Assembly: GCF_009914755.1 (NCBI RefSeq)
Contig: NC_060931.1
Length of the DNA stretch: 64,000 bases
Source of the DNA: the human T2T-CHM13v2.0 reference genome, Homo sapiens
Direction: 5' to 3' (one strand)
The notes under the pieces were generated by a model, which did no database searches, was not told the DNA's origin, and worked only from the letters and a program-made list of their open reading frames with translations. Made by a program: the position numbers and the translations under genes. Of the stretch, positions 16,859 to 31,959 are shown piece after piece. Position 1 is the first letter of the stretch, and each line of letters starts with the position of its first letter.

Positions 16859-19800
16859 TCATTGGTGAGTTTGCCTGCAGCAATTATTACTATGGTGTTC
16901 TAATGGCAATTTTCTATGCTTCTCATTCCAGCTACCTTTATTAACTGGAATCCTTCTGCAAGAGTTTTCTCTTCTCCATCATTTATTTATTATGTGTGAA
17001 CTGATGGCTATTTATTTTACTCCTTGGATTGTAATCCAATCCTATTTGGTTGCTCAGATGGCCAGCCTTGGCTGTTGGGAGCTCCTCTAGGTTTGCTCCT
17101 GTGTTCTTCGGCATGCTGCCAGCCTCCCTCCTCTGCCTTCTTTTCTTTCCTTTTTTTTTGAGCATTCTCCATCTTTCTGGAACCATGAGATGCTCCAGGA
17201 TTATCTTGAATTATTTTTGTCTCAGACCTGGAATCAACTTCGTCAAGCAATCTTAGTTTTTTTAATTGGAGAATGGTAAATATCATTAATACATATCAAG
17301 ATCTGTGTGCCAGCTTCTATGCAGGTGGCTCTCTCATCAGACAGAGCTAGGAAGTATATGAACGTGTACTAATTCATTTGTATGCAAATTGTCTATCTAT
17401 TAATTGATCAATCGATCAATCCACCAATTTATTGATCCATCATCTATCTATTAAAGAAAGGCGTAACTTTACACTGACACTTGTGACTGCAATCCAGCAC
17501 AATGTGTTCATTCTGGCATTTTCCCTTTACTTATTTGTAACTTTAGCTCTCATTAACTACAATCTTTCTTTGGATCTTATTATCTACAGTATATTTACTT
17601 ATTTGCCCTGTTCTACTGTACAAGTAAAATATTTTTCGACTTGTTACCTCATACTTTTGTGAAAAACAAACTTGACAAATAGAGTACAGTGTTTATAGAC
17701 CATTCTTTTAATCTTTAATCTCACGGCATCCAGGCGAAGTGCTTAGATCCAATCCTTTCTTTTTCATCTCCAGGGTGATTGTGTCATATGTTTGCAATAC
17801 AGTCAGTTTCATTGTCACAGTCTGCATTCCACCTTGGGAACCCCTGACGTCCTGTTTTGTTTTGTTTTGTTTTTAACTATTTGCATACAGTAATATTCAC
17901 TCTTTGAGGTGTACAGGTCTATGGGTTTTGGCAAATGCATGGAATCTTATATCCAAAACCACTTTATATATAGAAGGGTTTGTTAACCCTCCCAATTCCC
18001 TCATGCTGTACTTTTGTAGTCAAACCTTTCCCCCACTCCCGACCCTAGGCAATTACTTATCTGCTTTCTGTCTCTACAGTTTTTGTCTTTCCTAGAGTGT
18101 CACATAAACTGAATAATATAGTATGTAGCCTTCGGGGTTTGGTTTCTTTCTTTCACCTACCAAAGTGGATTTAAGATTCATTTACATTGTCGCATAAATC
18201 AATAGTCTATTACTCTTTATTGATGAGTCATATTATATTGTGTCACTGTTCCACAGTCTGTTTAACCATTCATCTGTTGAAAGAAAGGTGATTTCCAGTT
18301 TTTAATAATTATGAATAAAGCTACTGTAAACATCTGTGTAAAGGTAAGCATAAATGTTTGATTCACTTAGGTAAATACCCAGGAGAAGGATTGATAGTAA
18401 GTATATATTTAACTTTAAAATAAACTGCTAAAGTGTTTTGTAAATTGGTTGTACTATTTTACATTCTCATTGGAGTTCTCAGAGAGTTCCAGTTGCTTTG
18501 CATCTTGGCAAACACTTGGTTTTGTCCATTTTTAAATTTTAGCCATCCTAGTAGGTGTATAGTTTGTGGTTTGTAGCTTGTGGCTTGCATTTGCATTTCC
18601 CTAATGAAATATGACGTTGAGCATCTTTTAGATGTTACTTACCATCTGTGCATCTTTCTTTATGAAGTGACTCTTCAATTCTTTTGTTGATTTAAAAAAT
18701 TGCATTGTCTTTCTTAATGTTGAGTTTTGATGTTCTTTATGTATTCTACATACAAGTTCCTTTTTGGGCATTTAATTTGCAAATATTTTCTCTCAGTCTG
18801 TGGCTTGTCTTTTTCTTCTCCTTGCAAAGCAAAAGTTTGTAGAATTTTGTTAAAGTCTAATTTATCAAGATTTTTTCTCACATGGATTGTGGTTTTAGTA
18901 TTGTATCTAACAAGTCTTTCCCAAGCCCAAGAACATGCAGATTTTTTCCATATTTTCTTCTAGGTCATTTATTATTTTATGTTTAAATTTAGGTCTATGA
19001 TCCATTTTGAGTTAAGTCTGTAAAAGTTGTGAGGTATGGATTGAAGTTCATTTTTGCTTTTCCAAACAAATGTTCAGTTGTTCCAGCACCGTGTGTGGAA
19101 AATACTGTACTTTCTCCACTAAATTGACTTTGCACCTTTATTTAAAAATCAGTTAACTGTATTTGTGTGGGTCTATTTCTGGGCTTTCTATTTTGTTCCA
19201 TTCATCTATGTGCCTATCCTTTTGCCAATACCACACTCTCATGATCCCTGTAGCTATGTAGTAGGTGTTAAAATTGGATAGTGTGTCCTTAACTTTTTCC
19301 CACAATTCCCAGAATTGTGTTATCTATTTTAGTTTCTTTGTTTATCCATTCAAATATTAGAATCAGCTCAATTATATCTATGAAAACAGCTAACTGGGAT
19401 TATGTTGAATCTATAGATCAAATTGAGGATAATTTGCATCTTAGTAATATTGGATCTTTTAATCCATGAACACAATATAACTCCCTATTTTTTTCAGGTT
19501 TTTATTACTTTCACTTATGTTTTATAGTTTTCAGCATATTTTGTTATATTTATCTATAAGTATTTTATTTTATGAAGCTATTGTATGTAGCACTTTTAAA
19601 AGTTTGACTTCTGATTGTTAATTGCAAATACATGGAAATATAATTGATTTTGTATGTATACTTGGATCTTGCAACATTGCTAAATCTGCTTATTAGTTCC
19701 AGGATGTTTTTCTGTAGATTTATTTGGATTTTCTACATAAATTAGGGTTTCAACCAAAACAGCCAGTTTTATTTTTTCATTGAAATCTGTATACCTCTTA

Positions 19801-24206: not shown

Positions 24207-24401
24207 GAGTGGAATTGCTGGGTCATATGGTAGTTCAACGTTTACCTTTTTGAGAAACTGACAAACTGTTTTCCACAGCAGCTGTGCATTTACATTTCCA
24301 CTAACAATGCCTGAGAGTTCTGATTTCTCAGCATCCTCATCAACACTTGGTATTTTCCTTAATTTTTTTAAAAAAAATAACCGCCCTAGTGGATATAAAG
24401 T

Positions 24402-26893
24402 TGCCATTGTTACGTTCGTTTGACCCTTCCAAATTTCATGTAGAAATCTGATCCCCAATGTTGGAGATGGGGCCTAATGGGAGGTATTTGGGTCATGAGG
24501 GCAGCTCCCTCATGGAGGACATATTAATGTCCTCCCTTTGGGGGTGGTGGGTGAGTACTCACTCTGTTAGTTCCTGTGAGAGCTGGTTATTTAAAAGAGC
24601 CTGGCCCCTTTGCTTCTTGCTTCCTCTTCCACTCCGTGATCCCTGCACATGTTAGATCCCATTCACCTTCTGCCATGAGTGGAAGCAGTCCGAAGCCCTC
24701 ACTAGGTGCCTATGCTGGTGCTGTGATTCTTGTACAGCCTGCAGAACCATTAACCAAAGAAACCTCTTTTCTTTATAGATTACCCAGCTTCAGGTATTTC
24801 TTTATAGCAGCACAAATGAACTAAGGCAGAAAATTGGTTACGGAGGAGTGGGATGTTGCTATAAAGATACCTAAAAATGTGGAAACAGCTTTGGAACTGG
24901 GTAATGGGCAGAAGTTGGGAGAGTTTGGAGGGCTCAGAAGAAGATAAAAATATCAGGAAAAGTTTGAAACTTCTTCAAGATTTGTTAAGTGGTGGTTTCA
25001 AAAATGCTGATAGAAATATAGAGGGTAAAGGCCAGGCTAACAAGGTCTCAGACAGAAATGAAGAACTTATGGGGAACTGGAGCAAAGGTCATCCTTGTTA
25101 AAGAACTTGTCAATGCCTAGGGCATTGTGTCCATGCCCTAGGATTTGTGGATGACCAAACTTAAGAGTAATGTTCTAGGGTATCTAGTGGAAGAAATGTC
25201 TAAGTGGCAAAGCATTCAAGAAGTGCCAGTGTTGCTTTTAGTGGCTTATGATCAGATGTGGGAGCAAAGAAATGACCTAAAAGTTGAATTTATGATTAAA
25301 AGGGAATCAGATCAGAAAAATGTGGAAAATTCTCAGCCTGGCCATGTGGTAGGGAAGGAAAGAGCATTTTCAGGAGAGAAATCCAAGGGTGCTGCAAAGC
25401 AACCTCTTGCTAGAGAGATTAGCATAGATAAAAGGGAATCTATAACTTAAAAAAATGGTAGCCAGGTGCTAATAGTCAAGACAATGGAAAAAAGTTCCTG
25501 AACGCATTTCAGAAATCTTCAAGGTGCACCTCTCAGCATAGGCTCAGAGACCTAAAAGGACAGAATAATTTTGGGGGAGAGGTCTGTGGCACTGTTGCCC
25601 TATGTTGCCTGAGGATACTGCTTCCTGCATCCCAGCCACTCTGACTCCAGCTGAGGGTCAAATGGCTTCAGGTACTGTTTGAGGTGCTTCTCTGAAGGGT
25701 GCAGCTATAAACCTTCATGGCTTCCATGTGGTGTTACGTCTGCAGGTGCACAGAATGCCAGAGCGGTGGAGGCTTGGCAGCTTTCACTTACATTTCACAG
25801 AATGTATCTGAAAGCCAGGATGCCTGCTAAAGGAGTGGAACCCCAACAGAATGACTCTACTAAGGCAATGCTACTTGGAAATATAAAGTTGGAACCCCTG
25901 CAGAGAGTCCCCACTTGGGCACTGCCTAGTGGCTATGTGGAAGCAGGACTGCTGTCCTCCAGACCTGAGAATTATTGATCCACCAGCAGCATGACACCTC
26001 AGCCTGGAAAAGCCACAGGCATTCAAGTCCAACCCATGGTGGAAGCCACAGGGCTGTTTGCAGAAAAGCCATGAGGGTGTGGCTGCCCAAGGCTTTGAGA
26101 TTTCACTCCTTGAACCAGTGGGGCTAGGATGTAGGACTGGAGTCAAAGGAGAATTTTTTTTAGCTTTAAAATTTCATGTATGCCCTGCTGAGTTTTGAAC
26201 TTGCATAGGGACTGTTACCCCTTGCTTTTGTCTTATTTCTCCTTTTTGGAATGGAAATGTTTGCCCAATGTTTGCTCTGTCATTGTATCTTGGAAGTAAA
26301 TAACTTGCTTTTGATTTTATGGGATCATATCTGTAAGAAACCCGCTTTGAGTCTCAGATGAGATTTTGGACTTTGGACTTTAAAGTTGGTGTGAAACAAG
26401 TTAAGACTTTTGAAGACTATTGGGAAGGAATGATTATATTCTCTACATGAGAAAGACATGAGATTTGGGGGTCCAGGTATGGAATACTATAGTTTATTTG
26501 AATCCTCCAAACCTCAAGTTAAAATCGGATTCCCAATGTTAAAGGTGGGGCCTAATGGTCCAATGGTTTGGGTCATGGGAGCAGATCCCTCATGAATAGA
26601 TCAGTGCCCTCCCTGGTGGGGGTGGGTGAACTGGTTCTCACTTTATTAGTTTCCACAAAAGTTGGTTGTTTAAAAGAGCCTGGCACATTCTCCCCTTGCT
26701 TCTTCTCTTACTTTGTGATCTCTGCACATGCCAGCTCCCATTCACCTTCTGTTATGAGTGGAAGCAGTTTGAGGCCCTCACAAGATGCTGGTGCCATGTT
26801 TCTTATACAGCCTTCAGAACTGTGAATGAAATAAACCTCTTTTCTTTATAGATTACCCAAGCTCAGTTATTCTTTATAGCAATGTCAAACAGA
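24402..26893 (+). mobile_element. Full-length MST-type MaLR element (LTR 24402-24828, internal 24829-26484, LTR 26485-~26893)
   Basis: Two similar LTRs; internal region starts GAAAATTGGT..GGAGTGG and ends in a purine tract before TACTATAG; no intact ORF. Confidence 0.9.
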
Positions 26894-27051
26894 GTAGTTC
26901 TATCTCATTCTGGTTTTGATTTGTATTTCCCTAATGACTAATAATGTTAAGCATTTTTTCAGTGGTGTAATCTTCGGAGAAATGTCTTTCAGGTCCTTTG
27001 CCTATTTTTGAATTGGATTGTTTAGTTTCTTATTGTTGAGTTGCATGTTCT

Positions 27052-28925
27052 TGCCTTAGTCTATTCTCACACTGCTTTAAAGACATACTCAAGACTGAGT
27101 AATTTATAAAAAAAAAAAAAGAGAGATTTAATTGACTCACAGTTCCTCATGGTGGGGGAGACCTCAGGAAACTTACAATCATGTTAGAAGGGGAAGCAGG
27201 CACATCTTACATGGCAGCAGGCAAGAGAGAGCATGTGTCAGCACAGGAAAAACTAACATTTATAAAACCATCAGATCTTGAGAGAATTCACTCATTATCA
27301 TGGGAACAGCATAATAATCAACCTCATAATTCACCTTCATAATCCAATCACTTCCCACAAGCTCTCTCCCTACCTGGGGATTACAATTCTAGATGAGATA
27401 TGGGTCGGGACACAAAGCCTAACCATATCATTTCACCTTGGCCTCTCCCCTCTCAAATCCCATGTTCTCACATTTCAAAATCAATCATGCCTTCCCAACA
27501 GTCCCCCGAAGTCTTGACTCATTTTAGCATTAACTAAATAGTCCAAGTCCAAAGTCTTATGTGAGACAAGGCCCAGGAGCCTGTAAAATCAGACTCAGTT
27601 TATTTACTTCCAAGATACAATGGAGGTACAGACATTGGATAAATGCTTCAATTCCAAATGGGAGAAATTGGCCAAAACAAAGGGGTTACAGGCCTCATGC
27701 AAGTCCAATATCCAACAGGGCAGTCATTAAATCCTAAAGCTCCAAAATAATCTCCTTTGACTCCATGTCTCACATCCAGGGAATGGTGATGCAAAAAGTG
27801 GGCTCCTATGGCCTTGGGGAGCTCTGCCTCTGTGGCTTTGCAGGGTACAGTCCCCCATTCCAGCTGCTTTCATGGCTGGCATTGAGTGTCTGTAGCTTTT
27901 CCAGGCACACAGTGCAAGCTGTTGGTGGATCTATCTTTCTGGGGTCTGAAGGATGGTGGCCTTCTTCTCATAGCCCCACTAGGCAGTGCCCCAGTGGGGA
28001 CTCTGTGTGGGAGCTCCAATCCCACATTTCCCCCTTGTACTGTCCTAGCAGAGGGTCTCCATGAGGGCTTCACCCCTGCAACAGACCTCTGCTGGACATC
28101 CAGGCATTTCCGTACTTCCTCTGAAATCTAGGTGGAGTTTTCCAAAACCTCAATTCTTGACTCCTGCAGGCCCAACACCATGTGGAAGCTGCCAAGGCTT
28201 GGGGCTTACATCCTCTGAAGCAACTGTGGGACTATATGTTGGCACCTTTAAGCCATGGCTGGGATACAGGGCACCAAATCTTGAGGCTGCACAGAGCAGG
28301 AGTGGGGACTGTGGGTCTGACCCATGAAACCATTTTTCCCTTCTAGGCCCCTGGGTCTGTGAAGGGAGGAGCTGCCATGAAAGTCTCTGACATGCCCTGG
28401 AGACATTTTCCCCATTGTCTTGGTTCTTAACATTGCTCCTCATTGCTTCTGCAAATTTTTGTCGCCAGCTTGAATTTCTCTCCAGAAAAATAGGTTATTT
28501 TTTTTCTATTGTATTGTCAGGCTGCAAATTTTCCAAACTTTAATGCTCTGCTTCCCTTTTAAACATAAGTTCCAATTTCATGTAATCTCTCTCAAGTTCA
28601 AAGTTCCACAGATCTCTAGGGCAGGGGCAAAATGTCCCACTCTCTTTGCTAAAGCATAGCAAGAGTGACCTTTGCTCCAGTTCCCAAGAAGTTCCTCATC
28701 TCCATCTGATTCCACCTCAGCCTGGACTTCATTGTCCACATCATTATCAGCATTTTGGTCAAAACCATTCAACTAGTCTCTAGAAAGTTTCAAACTTTCC
28801 CACATATTCCTGTCTTCTTCCAAGTCCTCCAAACTGTTCCAACCTCTGCCTGTTACCCAGTTCCAAAGTCACTTCCATATTTTCAAGTATCTTTATAGCA
28901 GTATCCCACTCCTGGTACCAAAATC
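27052..28925 (-). mobile_element. THE1D/MSTA-type MaLR: 3' LTR (27052-27430) plus internal region (27431-28925)
   Basis: LTR reads tgccttagtc...gggacacaaagcctaaccatatca; the ~1.5-kb internal region is homologous (antisense) to the MST internal region at 24829-26484. Confidence 0.9.
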
Positions 28926-29542
28926 TGTTTTAGTCAGGGTTCTCTAGAGGGCCAAAACTAATACAATATATGTATATATGAAAGGGAGTTTATTAAGGAT
29001 AATTGACTCACATGATCACAAGGTGAAGTCCCACAATAGACCGTCTGCAAGTTGAGGGGCAAGGAAGCCGGTAGTGGCTCAGTCCAAGATCGAAAACTTC
29101 GAAAGTAGGGAAGTCAACAGTGCAGCCTTCATTCTGTGGCCAAGGCTTGAGAGCTTGTGGCAAACCATTAGTGTAAGTCCAAGAGTCCAAAGTCATCTCT
29201 CTCCAATGCTGGATGCCTCCTGTCCTCAGACATAAGACTCCGAGTTCTGATGTTTGAGGGGAGGAAGCATCCATCATGGGTGGAAGATGAAGACTGGAAG
29301 ACTCATCAAGTCAACTTTTTCCATTTTCTTCTGCTTGCTTTTTCTAGCCATGCTGGCAGCTGATTGGCTGGTGCCTGTCCACAGTGTGGGTGGATCTTGC
29401 TGAGGGTGAGTCTTCTTCTCCCAGTCCACTGACTCAAATGTTAACCTCTTCTGGAAACACCCAGAAACATCCAGATACACTCAGAAACAATACTTTGCAT
29501 CCTTCAATCCAATCAAGTTGACACTTAATATTAACCATCACA
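28926..29542 (-). mobile_element. ERV-L LTR (MLT2A/B-like) in the 5' LTR position of the MaLR element
   Basis: tgttttagtcagggttctctagaggg...atcaagttgacacttaatattaaccatcaca match the MLT2 termini. Confidence 0.85.
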
Positions 29543-31959
29543 GTGCTCTTTATATATCCTGGATATTAATGCTTTATCAGATATATTATTTGCAAACATT
29601 TTCTCTGATTCTGTGGATTGTCTTTTCACTCTCTTGATTATGTTCTTAGATTCCCATAAGTTTTTAATTTTGGCAATGCCCAATTTATCTATTTTTTCTT
29701 TTGTTGCCTATACTTTTGGTATCATACTTAATTAACCATTGCTAAACCCAAGGTAATGAAGATTTTCCCTTATGTTTTCATTTAACAGTTTTGGCTCTTA
29801 AATTTAGATCTTTATCCATTTATTTTGAGTTACATTTTGTATAGGGTGTAAAGTAAAGGTCTAACTTCATTCTTTTGCATATGAGCATCCAGTTTTCTCA
29901 ACATTGTTTGTTGAAAAGACTGACTTTTCCCCACTGAACGACCTTCACAGCCTTGTCAAAAATAAATTGGCCATATATGTGAGGGTTTATGTCTGGCTCT
30001 GTATTCCATTCATTGGTCTATATATCCATCTTTGTGCCAGCACTACATTGTTTTGATTACCATAGCTTTGTAGATTTGAATTTTAGAAATGTGAGACTTC
30101 CAGCTTACTTCCAGTTTTGGCTTTGTTACAAGATTGTTTTTACTTTTTGGGGTCTGTTGAAACTCCATATAAATTTTTGTATGGAGTTTTCTATATCTGA
30201 AAACAATGGCAATAAAATTTTTTACAGATATTGCATTGAATCCATATATTACTTTGGGTGATATTGTCCTCTTAACAATATTATGTCATCCAGTCCATGA
30301 ACAGGGGATACATTTCCCTTGCTTTAGATCTCTAATTTCTTTCAGCAGTTGTGTAGTTTGCTATGTAAAAGTATTTCACTTCTTTGATTAAATTTATTCC
30401 AAACTATTTTATTCTTTTTGATGCTACTGTAAACAGAATAGTTTTCTTAATTTGCTTTTCAGAGCACTCATTGTTAATGTACAGTAATAGAACTAAAGTT
30501 TGCATGTTAATTTTGTATTCTTAAACTTTTCTGAATTTGTTTTTTAATGAATAAAAAGAAATATTATAGTCTAAATTTTATCCTCAGCAACCACAAAAAT
30601 GATTTTGAATTCTGAAAAAACAAAAAAAGCTTTAAGATAGTCCAAGTTTTTATTTCACACAGACATAGTTGGCATTTACATAGCAAATGCTTGGGGAGTA
30701 CAGCACTAGCCAAGGAAGTTTACACGATTTACATAGTAGTTGGTGTTCTGCACCACTCCTACCCTTTTTGTTATCACGGGTGCTTAACATGTATGGTTTC
30801 CAACTCCCTGCTTGGCTCAGCTCCTTTCCGGAGAGACTATTTTATTTGTTACTTAGTCTGGGTGCCTGAGTCGTCATAGTACTTGTCTGGTATTAGAATT
30901 TCAATATCATTACCAAAATAAAGCCATCTAGACAAAATTTTAAAGTTAAATTCTAGTATAAGAAATTTCAAATACTTTTTCCAAGACACTTTTGTCAAAA
31001 AGAAGCAGTAAGACGTGACATAACAGCAAACATATGTGCTTTATGTGCCCGTGACTAGTTGATTAACACCTTTATATGAATCAATGTATTTCATCCCCAC
31101 ATAGAACCTTTTAGATTATCTTATTATCCGCATTTTAGAGAAGGAAAAACTGAAGCACAGAGTGATTAAGATAGTAATAGGCAGATGCAGGATTTGAACT
31201 AATGCAGATAAGTGTATGGCCCTGAATTTTTTTATTAATTCTAACAGTTTTTTTTGTGGATTCTTTAGGGTTTTCTACATATAAGATCATGTCATTTGCA
31301 AACAAATAATTTTATTTTTTCCTTTCTAATTTGGATGTTTTTTATTTCTTTTTTTTTTTTTTTGCCTAATTACTCTGGCTAGTACTTCTAATACTATGTT
31401 GAATAAAAGTGGTGAAAGCAAGAAGTCTGTCTTGTTCCTGATCTCGGTGAGGGCAGGGGGGATTTTCAGTCTTTCACTGAGTGTAACTGAGTGCAAACTG
31501 TGGGTTTTTTTTTTTTTTTTCATATATGGCCTTCATTATGTTAGGGAAGTACCCTTCTATTCCTAATATACTGAGTGTTTTTAATCTTGAAATGGTGTTG
31601 GATTTTGTCACATACTTAATCTGCATCATTTGAGATTATCTTTTTCAAAAAATTTATTCTATTAACATGGTGTATTACACTGATTAATTTTCAAATATTG
31701 AGCTACCCTTGAATTGTTGGGATAAATTCCACTTGGCCATGTTGTATAATCCTCTTAATATGTGGTTACATTTGTTTTGCTAGTATTTTGTTGAGTATTT
31801 TAACATCTATATTAATAAAGATCAATTATCTTCTAAACAGTGTAAAATGAGAAAGAAGACCTTTTATTTTCAGTTTTATTCACATTTCTAGTCTCTGCTT
31901 CCCTTCCCTTCTCTTCCCTCATCTCCCCTCCCCTCACCTCCTCTCCTCTTTTGTTTTTT

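What the first reader, a model, noticed from the sequence alone, without database searches (positions are those of the whole stretch)
27047..29547. Chimeric provirus with mismatched LTRs: ERV-L (MLT2) 5' LTR joined at the PBS to a THE1/MST MaLR body, flanked by one TSD
Seen: on the minus strand the element reads MLT2 LTR (29542-28926), then GATTTTGGTACCAGGAGTGG, then ~1.5 kb of MaLR internal sequence, then a THE1-type LTR (27430-27052). The two LTRs are unrelated. The whole unit is flanked by GTTCT (27047-27051) and GTGCT (29543-29547), and the host L1 reads through colinearly once the unit is removed. The adjacent ordinary MST element has GAAAATTGGT at the same junction. Established: the 5' LTR of a retroviral cDNA comes from plus-strand strong-stop DNA that transfers via PBS complementarity, and MaLRs are non-autonomous and thought to rely on ERV-L machinery. 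From memory, GATTTTGGTACCAGGAGTGG is the HERV-L internal start. Inference: this is the product expected if ERV-L strong-stop DNA jumped onto a co-packaged MaLR minus strand at their shared PBS, making it a possible fossil of MaLR/ERV-L co-packaging. Post-integration gene conversion is the alternative.
Basis: partly seen in the sequence, partly recalled or inferred. Interest (0 to 1): 0.82.

Follow-up and report, generated by a model that had tools for sequence, protein, structure and literature searches.

The report
Retroelement fossil with two unlike ends
An old, dead retrovirus-like insertion between AQP1 and GHRHR has a left end from one repeat family and a body and right end from another, most likely because two different elements were copied together in one particle tens of millions of years ago.

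Summary
On the minus strand, window 27052-29542 is one unit: a 617-nt LTR, a 5-nt linker, a primer-binding site, a 1.5-kb MaLR interior and a 379-nt MaLR (THE1-like) LTR. The two LTRs do not align above shuffles. Genomic kin confirm all four LTR bounds. The L1 flanks, compared apart with another L1 copy, abut with a 5-nt duplication matching 4 of 5.

The join sits at the linker and primer-binding site. The linker type follows the 5' LTR family: kin with that LTR share it, and 3 of 3 copies with a MaLR 5' LTR do not. This fits an intermolecular plus-strand strong-stop transfer.

Two corrections apply. The unit is not unique: 18 of 39 scored kin of the 5' LTR run on into MaLR-type interior, and two fetched ones also end in a MaLR LTR. 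Also, I could not tie the 5' LTR to an ERV-L pol; 0 of 3 downstream windows held one. The names MLT2 and ERV-L therefore stay recalled.

Age is roughly 35-50 million years. There is no envelope gene, and the single reading frame is badly broken.

The parts
27052..29542 (-). The whole unit as integrated (2491 nt): 5' LTR, linker, primer-binding site, interior, 3' LTR
   Evidence: only the window's own locus covers query 1-2491
28926..29542 (-). 5' LTR, 617 nt, of a family different from the 3' LTR (MLT2-like by recollection; name not tool-verified)
   Evidence: Kin L002/L003 match query 1-617/618; substitution identity 86%, K2P 0.156-0.159; L002 has a perfect 5-nt duplication
28903..28925 (-). 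5-nt linker followed by an 18-nt primer-binding site; the join between the two parental kinds lies here
   Evidence: linker shared with kin that carry the same kind of 5' LTR and differs from 3 of 3 copies with a MaLR 5' LTR; the site recurs with 1-2 changes in L006 and L004
27431..28925 (-). Interior between the LTRs: linker, primer-binding site, leader, remnant of the single putative gag reading frame (gene bounds not given) and purine tract; MaLR type
   Evidence: (75-82% to 40 MaLR copies); no retroviral Pfam family in 6 window pieces
27052..27430 (-). 3' LTR, 379 nt, MaLR type (THE1-like by length and recollection)
   Evidence: 5' LTRs of ordinary MaLR kin match query 2111/2113-2487/2491; K2P 0.21-0.27 to three MaLR LTRs
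29543..29547 (.). Upstream copy of the 5-nt target-site duplication (host L1 sequence)
   Evidence: 4 of 5 match with the downstream copy
27047..27051 (.). Downstream copy of the 5-nt target-site duplication (host L1 sequence)
29548..30400 (-). Host L1 fragment upstream of the unit
   Evidence: aligns to another L1 copy of the window up to reference 18731
26886..27046 (-). Host L1 fragment downstream of the unit, continuing the same L1
   Evidence: aligns to the same L1 copy from reference 18736 on
24392..26880 (+). Neighbouring ordinary, older MaLR element with a matching LTR pair (bounds approximate); used as comparator
   Evidence: LTR pair 305/384; K2P 0.281; 6-nt A-rich linker

Best explanation
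The unit is a dead, first-generation product of reverse transcription in a particle that held two different class III genomes.

Proposed sequence of events:
1. A MaLR RNA was copied into a full minus-strand DNA.
2. [quoted passage not shown] That DNA comprises the LTR, the linker and a copy of the tRNA 3' end.
3. Extension of both strands gave a DNA with the foreign LTR and linker on the left and the MaLR interior and MaLR LTR on the right.
4. This DNA integrated once into an old L1 and made one 5-nt duplication.

Shown: the unlike complete LTRs, the single integration, the join at the linker and primer-binding site, the linker following the 5' LTR family, and further loci with the same build.

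Inferred: the strand-transfer step itself, co-packaging, and that the LTR donor was an autonomous ERV-L.

The unit has no function today. Its only reading frame is broken many times, and it has no pol or env.
For: - Unlike LTRs. LTR bounds confirmed by kin.
- One integration: (flanks abut in L1 with 5-7 nt overlap; 4 of 5 duplication; 0 of 5 for the 5' LTR alone).
- Join at the primer-binding site: 19 of 39 kin loci of the 5' LTR stop within about 50 nt before to 3 nt past its end, most of them within 10 nt of it, and 2 stop just past the primer-binding site. In one search, none of the other 80 match rows begins before query 599, and 14 main rows begin at 608.
- Linker: 5 nt, identical in L006 and in L007/L008, 4 of 5 in L004. 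It is 6 nt and A-rich in L012, L013 and the neighbour. Mouse ERV-L has a 5-nt linker, a Leu(TAA) primer site and a 5-nt duplication (PMC5930517, passages).
- Recurrence with a precise junction: L005 and L004 have the same kind of 5' LTR, MaLR interior and a MaLR-type 3' LTR end.
- LTR and interior similarity do not rank the kin alike, as expected of separate events. L006 has the closest interior start (91-92%), but its 5' LTR matches less well (72% with gaps) than those of L002/L003 (81%).
- Mechanism: PMC5651808 and PMC6894440 (passages).
- Overlap in time: K2P 0.156-0.159 for the 5' LTR and 0.147-0.206 for the interior. THE1/MSTA/MSTB are simian-only (PMC10735291, sections 3-4). MLT2A2/B3-type copies were mostly inserted between the tarsier split and the simian ancestor (PMC11319637, text). 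HERV-L waves ran until about 40-30 Mya (PMC11359688, passage).
Against: - No pol-bearing provirus was found behind any kin of the 5' LTR. Three downstream windows share only Alu, and 0 of 28 ORF pieces hit a retroviral Pfam family. The ERV-L nature of the donor is therefore unproven.
- Spanning copies are frequent among the scored hits (18 of 39). This could instead mean a lineage that normally pairs this LTR with a MaLR-like interior.
- The linker comparison rests on 4 independent copies against 3.
- The duplication has one mismatch. A 7-nt reading (5 of 7) is also possible against the one L1 reference copy.
- L004 shows no clear duplication, and the 5' end of L005 is truncated, so single integration is shown for the window unit only.
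Confidence: 0.55

Rival explanations
1. Same strand-transfer mechanism, but the donor of the 5' LTR was not an autonomous ERV-L. It was a non-autonomous lineage that regularly carries this LTR type on a MaLR-like interior. The fossil would then record co-packaging of two hitch-hikers, not of helper and hitch-hiker.
For: 18 of 39 scored kin loci of the 5' LTR continue into MaLR-type interior. L006 has this LTR plus about two thirds of a MaLR interior and no MaLR 3' LTR within 4.4 kb. No pol lies behind L006, behind L007's locus or behind a third kin.
Against: Both fetched kin with a readable 3' end (L005, L004) finish in a MaLR-type LTR, not in the 5' type. No copy with the 5'-type LTR at both ends of a MaLR interior was seen. 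The search was biased towards spanning copies because the query spanned the junction. Only 40 of 8194 candidates were scored.
Confidence: 0.15
2. Recombination between two finished or nearly finished cDNAs, or a template switch further inside a stretch shared by both parents, before integration. The crossover would then lie somewhere in the leader or early interior rather than at the primer-binding site.
For: The first fifth of the interior is the best conserved part in all kin: 82-92%, against 76-82% further on. A crossover there would be hard to see. MaLR is reported to share homology with ERV-L gag (PMC11359688, passage).
Against: A switch during minus-strand synthesis yields two identical hybrid LTRs, not two unlike complete ones (PMC6894440, passages). 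The interiors behind the 5' LTR kin are as close to the window unit as ordinary MaLR interiors are, and share a ~100-nt length difference with them. They are therefore MaLR interiors, not a distant ERV-L gag.
Confidence: 0.12
3. Events after integration: gene conversion or ectopic recombination with another element, or nested insertions followed by deletions, replaced the original 5' LTR.
For: The last ~10 nt of the two LTR types and the primer-binding site are alike and could seed an exchange.
Against: The flanks are contiguous L1 with one duplication. The 5' LTR alone has no duplication (0 of 5), and no remnant of a MaLR 5' LTR lies upstream. There is no homology upstream of the LTR to resolve a conversion. 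The same precise junction recurs at independent loci, which random rearrangement would not give.
Confidence: 0.08

Closest known systems
Ordinary ERVL-MaLR elements of the THE1/MST group (the neighbour at about 24392-26880 and the 40 copies)
   Same: Interior of about 1.5 kb with one putative gag frame and no pol or env; MaLR 3' LTR; 5-nt duplication; primer-binding site right after a short linker.
   Different: Ordinary copies carry the same MaLR LTR at both ends and a 6-nt A-rich linker (3 of 3). The unit has a foreign 5' LTR and a 5-nt linker of another type.
HERV-L proviruses with MLT2 LTRs (PMC5753468 table passage; PMC11319637)
   Same: The 5' LTR resembles MLT2 by my recollection. Its kin of about 580 nt are near the published 550-554 nt of MLT2B3 and the 'aba' type. 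The 5-nt linker and 5-nt duplication match those described for mouse ERV-L (PMC5930517, passages).
   Different: No gag-pro-pol-dUTPase interior and no MLT2 3' LTR. The link of this LTR family to a pol-bearing interior was sought and not found here.
Products of intermolecular second (plus-strand) strand transfer in heterozygous retroviral particles (PMC5651808, passages)
   Same: Breakpoint at the border between U5 and the start of the interior. The provirus of the first generation has LTRs of different origin.
   Different: In that work the two parents are variants of one virus, and the event is inferred from later generations. Here the parents are two different repeat families, and the first-generation product itself is frozen in the genome.
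Mosaic human endogenous retroviruses (PMC4724089, passages)
   Same: Recombination between co-existing retroelements leaves mixed proviruses.
   Different: Those mosaics are mostly within class I or II, involve env, or are secondary insertions. That study states that a thorough analysis of MaLR lay outside its scope.

Membership tests
ERVL-MaLR element (THE1/MST group) | The same MaLR-type LTR at both ends | tested here: not met
   The 3' LTR is MaLR type (rows at query 2111-2491). The 5' LTR is not: no alignment above shuffles, and its kin are a different family.
ERVL-MaLR element (THE1/MST group) | Short interior homologous to other MaLR interiors, without pol or env | tested here: met
   75-82% to 40 copies and 70-76% to the neighbour. 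Interior of 1495 nt; no retroviral Pfam family in 6 pieces.
ERVL-MaLR element (THE1/MST group) | 5-nt target-site duplication | tested here: met
   4 of 5, with contiguous L1 flanks.
ERVL-MaLR element (THE1/MST group) | Subfamily (THE1A-D, MSTA-D) by match to a curated consensus | not testable with these tools
   No Dfam/RepeatMasker library was at hand. 'THE1-like' rests on LTR length (379 nt against about 410-440 nt in the neighbour) and on recollection.
HERV-L provirus (MLT2 LTRs) | Interior with gag, pro, pol and dUTPase | tested here: not met
   The interior is 1.5 kb and MaLR type.
HERV-L provirus (MLT2 LTRs) | The 5' LTR family is the one that flanks pol-bearing ERV-L interiors | tested here: inconclusive
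   0 of 3 downstream windows behind kin LTRs show pol. 0 of 8 pieces do so in L006 and 0 of 3 beside L003. The name MLT2 is recalled.
HERV-L provirus (MLT2 LTRs) | 5-nt linker and tRNA-Leu primer-binding site after the 5' LTR | tested here: inconclusive
   The 5-nt linker is present and shared with kin of the 5' LTR, as described for mouse ERV-L (PMC5930517, passages). Complementarity to tRNA-Leu(TAA) is recalled only; no tRNA sequence was available from a tool. Both ERVL and ERVL-MaLR sites match Leu-TAA in mouse (bioRxiv 10.64898/2026.01.22.698655, passages).
First-generation product of intermolecular plus-strand strong-stop transfer | Two complete LTRs of different origin in one integrated unit | tested here: met
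First-generation product of intermolecular plus-strand strong-stop transfer | Breakpoint at the primer-binding site, with LTR and linker from one parent and everything downstream from the other | tested here: met
   The sample for the linker is small (4 independent copies against 3).
First-generation product of intermolecular plus-strand strong-stop transfer | Both parents active at the same time and packed in one particle | not testable with these tools
   Overlap in time is suggested by K2P values and by the literature (PMC10735291, PMC11319637, PMC11359688). Co-packaging itself cannot be read from sequence.

The most novel reading that the evidence does not exclude
Units of this build are a recurrent class: a foreign class III LTR plus its own linker, joined at the primer-binding site to a MaLR interior and MaLR 3' LTR. 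Each would be a frozen record of one particle that packed an ERV-L genome and a MaLR genome together. A census of such pairs would show, subfamily by subfamily, which ERV-L wave mobilised which MaLR wave. At present that relationship is assumed from family resemblance alone.
Probability: 0.35. Interest if true: 0.75.

Novelty: new variant of a known kind. Interest (0 to 1): 0.55.

Why it matters
MaLRs make up about 4% of the human genome and cannot copy themselves (PMC10735291, section 3). Papers state that ERV-L supplied the machinery (for example PMC11319637, introduction), but the passages I read offer only family resemblance as evidence.

A provirus whose left LTR and linker come from one family and whose body and right LTR come from another, integrated in one step, is the direct footprint expected if both genomes sat in the same particle.

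If the class is as frequent as hints, public repeat annotation alone could turn a long-standing assumption into a countable, datable pattern. It would also give a natural estimate of how often second strand transfer is intermolecular.

For the locus itself nothing follows. The unit is inert and lies about 10 kb upstream of GHRHR.

Tried and rejected
Chance or mis-set boundaries: rejected, because kin fix all four LTR ends.

Two separate insertions: rejected by the flank tests.

The idea that the copies spanning the junction are plain HERV-L proviruses whose interior start merely resembles MaLR: I tried to settle it with three downstream windows (L009-L011). No pol appeared and the windows share nothing but Alu. 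The interiors behind these LTRs are as close to the unit as true MaLR interiors are. I therefore treat them as MaLR interiors, but the test is negative evidence only.

Linking the 5' LTR to ERV-L through L003, which has a purine-rich stretch before the LTR: no dUTPase or other family was found.

Naming the LTR from print: a 12-nt search found three unrelated papers.

Pfam on interior pieces: nothing. 'Gag' is therefore the literature's label (PMC10735291), not my result.

Literature searches for such chimeras found none described. That is not proof of absence. Subscription papers (Smit 1993, Cordonnier 1995) were not held, and Benit 1999 (PMC104094) was not held either. Supplements are closed. 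They include the hybrid-element lists of PMC11319637 and tables S1/S2 of PMC4724089, which might list such loci.

Not done because of caps or missing tools:
- primate orthologues;
- Dfam/RepeatMasker naming;
- more MaLR junctions;
- any check of the 13 spanning loci not fetched.


Full report
WHAT IS THERE

Read on the minus strand, window 29542-27052 is a single LTR-element unit of 2491 nt. It has a 617-nt LTR, a 5-nt linker, an 18-nt primer-binding site, an interior of about 1.5 kb and a 379-nt LTR.

The two LTRs do not align with each other above chance. The best local score is 14, against a shuffle mean of 11.3 and maximum of 16. By contrast, the neighbouring element on the plus strand (about 24392-26880) has an ordinary matching LTR pair, 305 of 384.

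The interior matches the neighbour's interior at 70-76% in three pieces.

BOUNDARIES AND SINGLE INTEGRATION

A genome search used the 5' LTR plus the first 176 nt of interior. It gave 8194 first-look candidates, of which 40 were scored. Two LTR copies, L002 and L003, match query 1-617/618 and stop there. L002 is a solo LTR with a perfect 5-nt duplication.

A second search used the whole unit (22866 candidates, 40 scored). The 5' LTRs of ordinary MaLR copies match query 2111/2113 to 2487/2491. This fixes the 3' LTR at 27430-27052.

The 5 nt on either side of the unit match 4 of 5. The 5' LTR alone gives 0 of 5 and the 3' LTR alone 3 of 5.

Each L1 flank was aligned apart to another L1 copy of the window. 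The upstream flank ends at reference 18731 and the downstream flank begins at 18736. The flanks therefore abut in L1 with a 5-7 nt overlap, which is a target-site duplication.

No remnant of a MaLR LTR lies in the 1.5 kb upstream.

One small correction: the last ~10 nt of the two LTR types are alike, because many MaLR kin begin to match at query 608.

FAMILY

The body and 3' LTR are ERVL-MaLR. In one search all 40 other main rows are MaLR copies. [quoted passage not shown] None of the other 80 match rows begins before query 599, so none of these close kin has the foreign 5' LTR.

I call the 3' LTR THE1-like from its length and from memory. No curated repeat library was available.

I recognise the 5' LTR as MLT2-like from memory. 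Its kin are about 580 nt long, near the 550-554 nt published for MLT2B3 and the 'aba' type (PMC11319637, text read).

I tried to verify the ERV-L link and failed:
- Three windows placed 2.4-5.8 kb behind kin LTRs (L009, L010, L011) share only Alu with each other.
- 0 of 28 ORF pieces from L006 and L009-L011 hit a retroviral Pfam family.
- 0 of 3 pieces beside L003 do so.

The family name of the 5' LTR is therefore a recalled label.

THE SURPRISE: THE BUILD RECURS

In one search, 18 of the 39 non-self loci run from the 5' LTR across the junction into the interior by 150 nt or more. A further 19 stop within about 50 nt before to 3 nt past the LTR end, most of them within 10 nt of it, and 2 stop just past the primer-binding site.

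I fetched five of the spanning loci:
- L007 and L008 are 95.6% identical including flank. They are one insertion copied by segmental duplication.
- L005 has the 3' part of the same kind of 5' LTR, a complete MaLR interior interrupted by one insertion of about 0.7 kb, and a MaLR-type 3' LTR.
- L004 has the 5' LTR, the first fifth of the interior, a large internal loss, and the last ~95 nt of a MaLR-type LTR. That end is 84% identical to the LTR of an ordinary MaLR copy and gives no match to the 5' type.
- L006 has the 5' LTR and about two thirds of the interior. Its 3' end was not found within 4.4 kb.

The interiors behind these LTRs are as close to the window unit as true MaLR interiors are. 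The first fifth is 85-92% identical, against 82-89% for MaLR-flanked kin.

LTR and interior similarity do not rank the kin alike. L006 has the closest interior start, but its 5' LTR matches less well (72% with gaps) than those of L002/L003 (81%). This fits separate events better than one lineage, though weakly.

THE JUNCTION

I compared only the non-gene stretch: the last 20 nt of the LTR plus the 45 nt before the reading frame.

The linker of the unit is 5 nt. It is identical in L006 and in L007/L008, matches 4 of 5 in L004 and 2-3 of 5 in L005.

The linker therefore travels with the 5' LTR, while everything after the primer-binding site is MaLR.

Mouse ERV-L is described with a 5-nt linker, a Leu(TAA) primer site and a 5-nt duplication (PMC5930517, passages only). 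In mouse, both ERVL and ERVL-MaLR sites match Leu-TAA (bioRxiv 10.64898/2026.01.22.698655, passages).

MECHANISM

In reverse transcription both LTRs of a new copy are normally identical. Switching during minus-strand synthesis gives hybrid but identical LTRs (PMC6894440, passages).

Two complete LTRs of different origin in a unit integrated once need a different step. [quoted passage not shown] It must come from one genome and anneal, through the shared primer-binding site, to the finished minus strand of the other.

This transfer is usually intramolecular. When it is intermolecular, it puts the breakpoint at the border of U5 and the interior (PMC5651808, passages).

Still inferred: the transfer itself, co-packaging, and that the LTR donor was an autonomous ERV-L rather than another hitch-hiker with that LTR.

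Post-integration routes are disfavoured by the contiguous flanks, by the lack of a separate duplication, and by the same precise junction at independent loci.

AGE AND STATE

Substitution distances (K2P):
- 5' LTR against L002/L003: 0.156-0.159.
- Interior against L004-L006: 0.147-0.206.
- 3' LTR against three MaLR LTRs, probably other subfamilies: 0.21-0.27.
- The neighbour's own LTR pair: 0.281.

At 2.2e-9 per site per year, these pairwise values give about 33-47 My for the 5' LTR and interior. They are upper-leaning estimates, because source copies may have differed.

The literature brackets agree:
- THE1, MSTA and MSTB are simian-only (PMC10735291, sections 3-4).
- MLT2A2/B3-type copies were mostly inserted between the tarsier split and the simian ancestor (PMC11319637).
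- HERV-L waves ended about 40-30 Mya (PMC11359688, passage).

My estimate is 35-50 My. The unit is younger than the neighbour and than the L1 that hosts both.

There is no pol or env. The single putative gag frame is broken:
- 16, 24 and 22 stops in the three sense frames.
- A longest open stretch of 114 codons, against 464 codons reported for one intact THE1D copy (PMC11359688, passage).
- Eight sense pieces of 40 or more codons spread over more than one frame, so there are frame changes whose number I did not determine.
- One length difference of about 100 nt (the unit is shorter) relative to at least six kin.

The unit is old, small, without envelope and unlike any virus of people or livestock.

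VERDICT

The unit is best read as a frozen first-generation product of an intermolecular plus-strand transfer between two class III genomes (confidence 0.55).

It is not unique, and that makes the class more interesting than the single locus.

The main gaps come from caps and missing tools:
- no curated naming;
- no pol link for the 5' LTR;
- no primate orthologues;
- only 5 of the 18 spanning loci read;
- only 40 candidates scored per search;
- matches in closed regions not shown.

Noticed in passing
window about 24392-26880 (+): A complete, older MaLR element with a matching LTR pair (305/384; K2P 0.281). It lies tail to tail with the studied unit and appears to sit in the same old L1.
   Followed up: partly
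L007 (chr22 about 17.13 Mb) and L008 (chr4 about 106.24 Mb): The two loci are 95.6% identical including 30 nt of flank, so one insertion was copied by segmental duplication. Several other rows with near-equal scores (chr2 twice, chr10, chr21) may belong to the same duplication family.
   Followed up: partly
rows on chr17, chr12, chr11, chr4, chr6, chr1: Six spanning copies stop matching about 25 nt before the end of the query, and two of them carry a second, overlapping match. This suggests a short tandem duplication in those copies or a loss in the window unit.
   Followed up: no
window 5' LTR, middle part; also L002, L003 and six rows: A stretch of about 56 nt inside this LTR family also matches itself in inverted orientation, so the LTR holds a short internal inverted repeat.
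   Followed up: no
window about 27100-27125: A long run of T (on the element's strand) lies inside the 3' LTR. It is probably a simple expansion of a T-rich stretch.
   Followed up: no
L006, downstream part: Two Alu-like copies and a pair of about 370-nt direct repeats (69% alike, about 1.65 kb apart) lie downstream of where the interior match ends. This is possibly another LTR element nested or adjacent; its family was not identified.
   Followed up: no
L011 (chr10, 2.4-5.8 kb behind a kin LTR): It holds a MaLR-type LTR and an Alu but no pol. The kin LTR there matches the query only to just past the primer-binding site, and what follows it was not read.
   Followed up: partly
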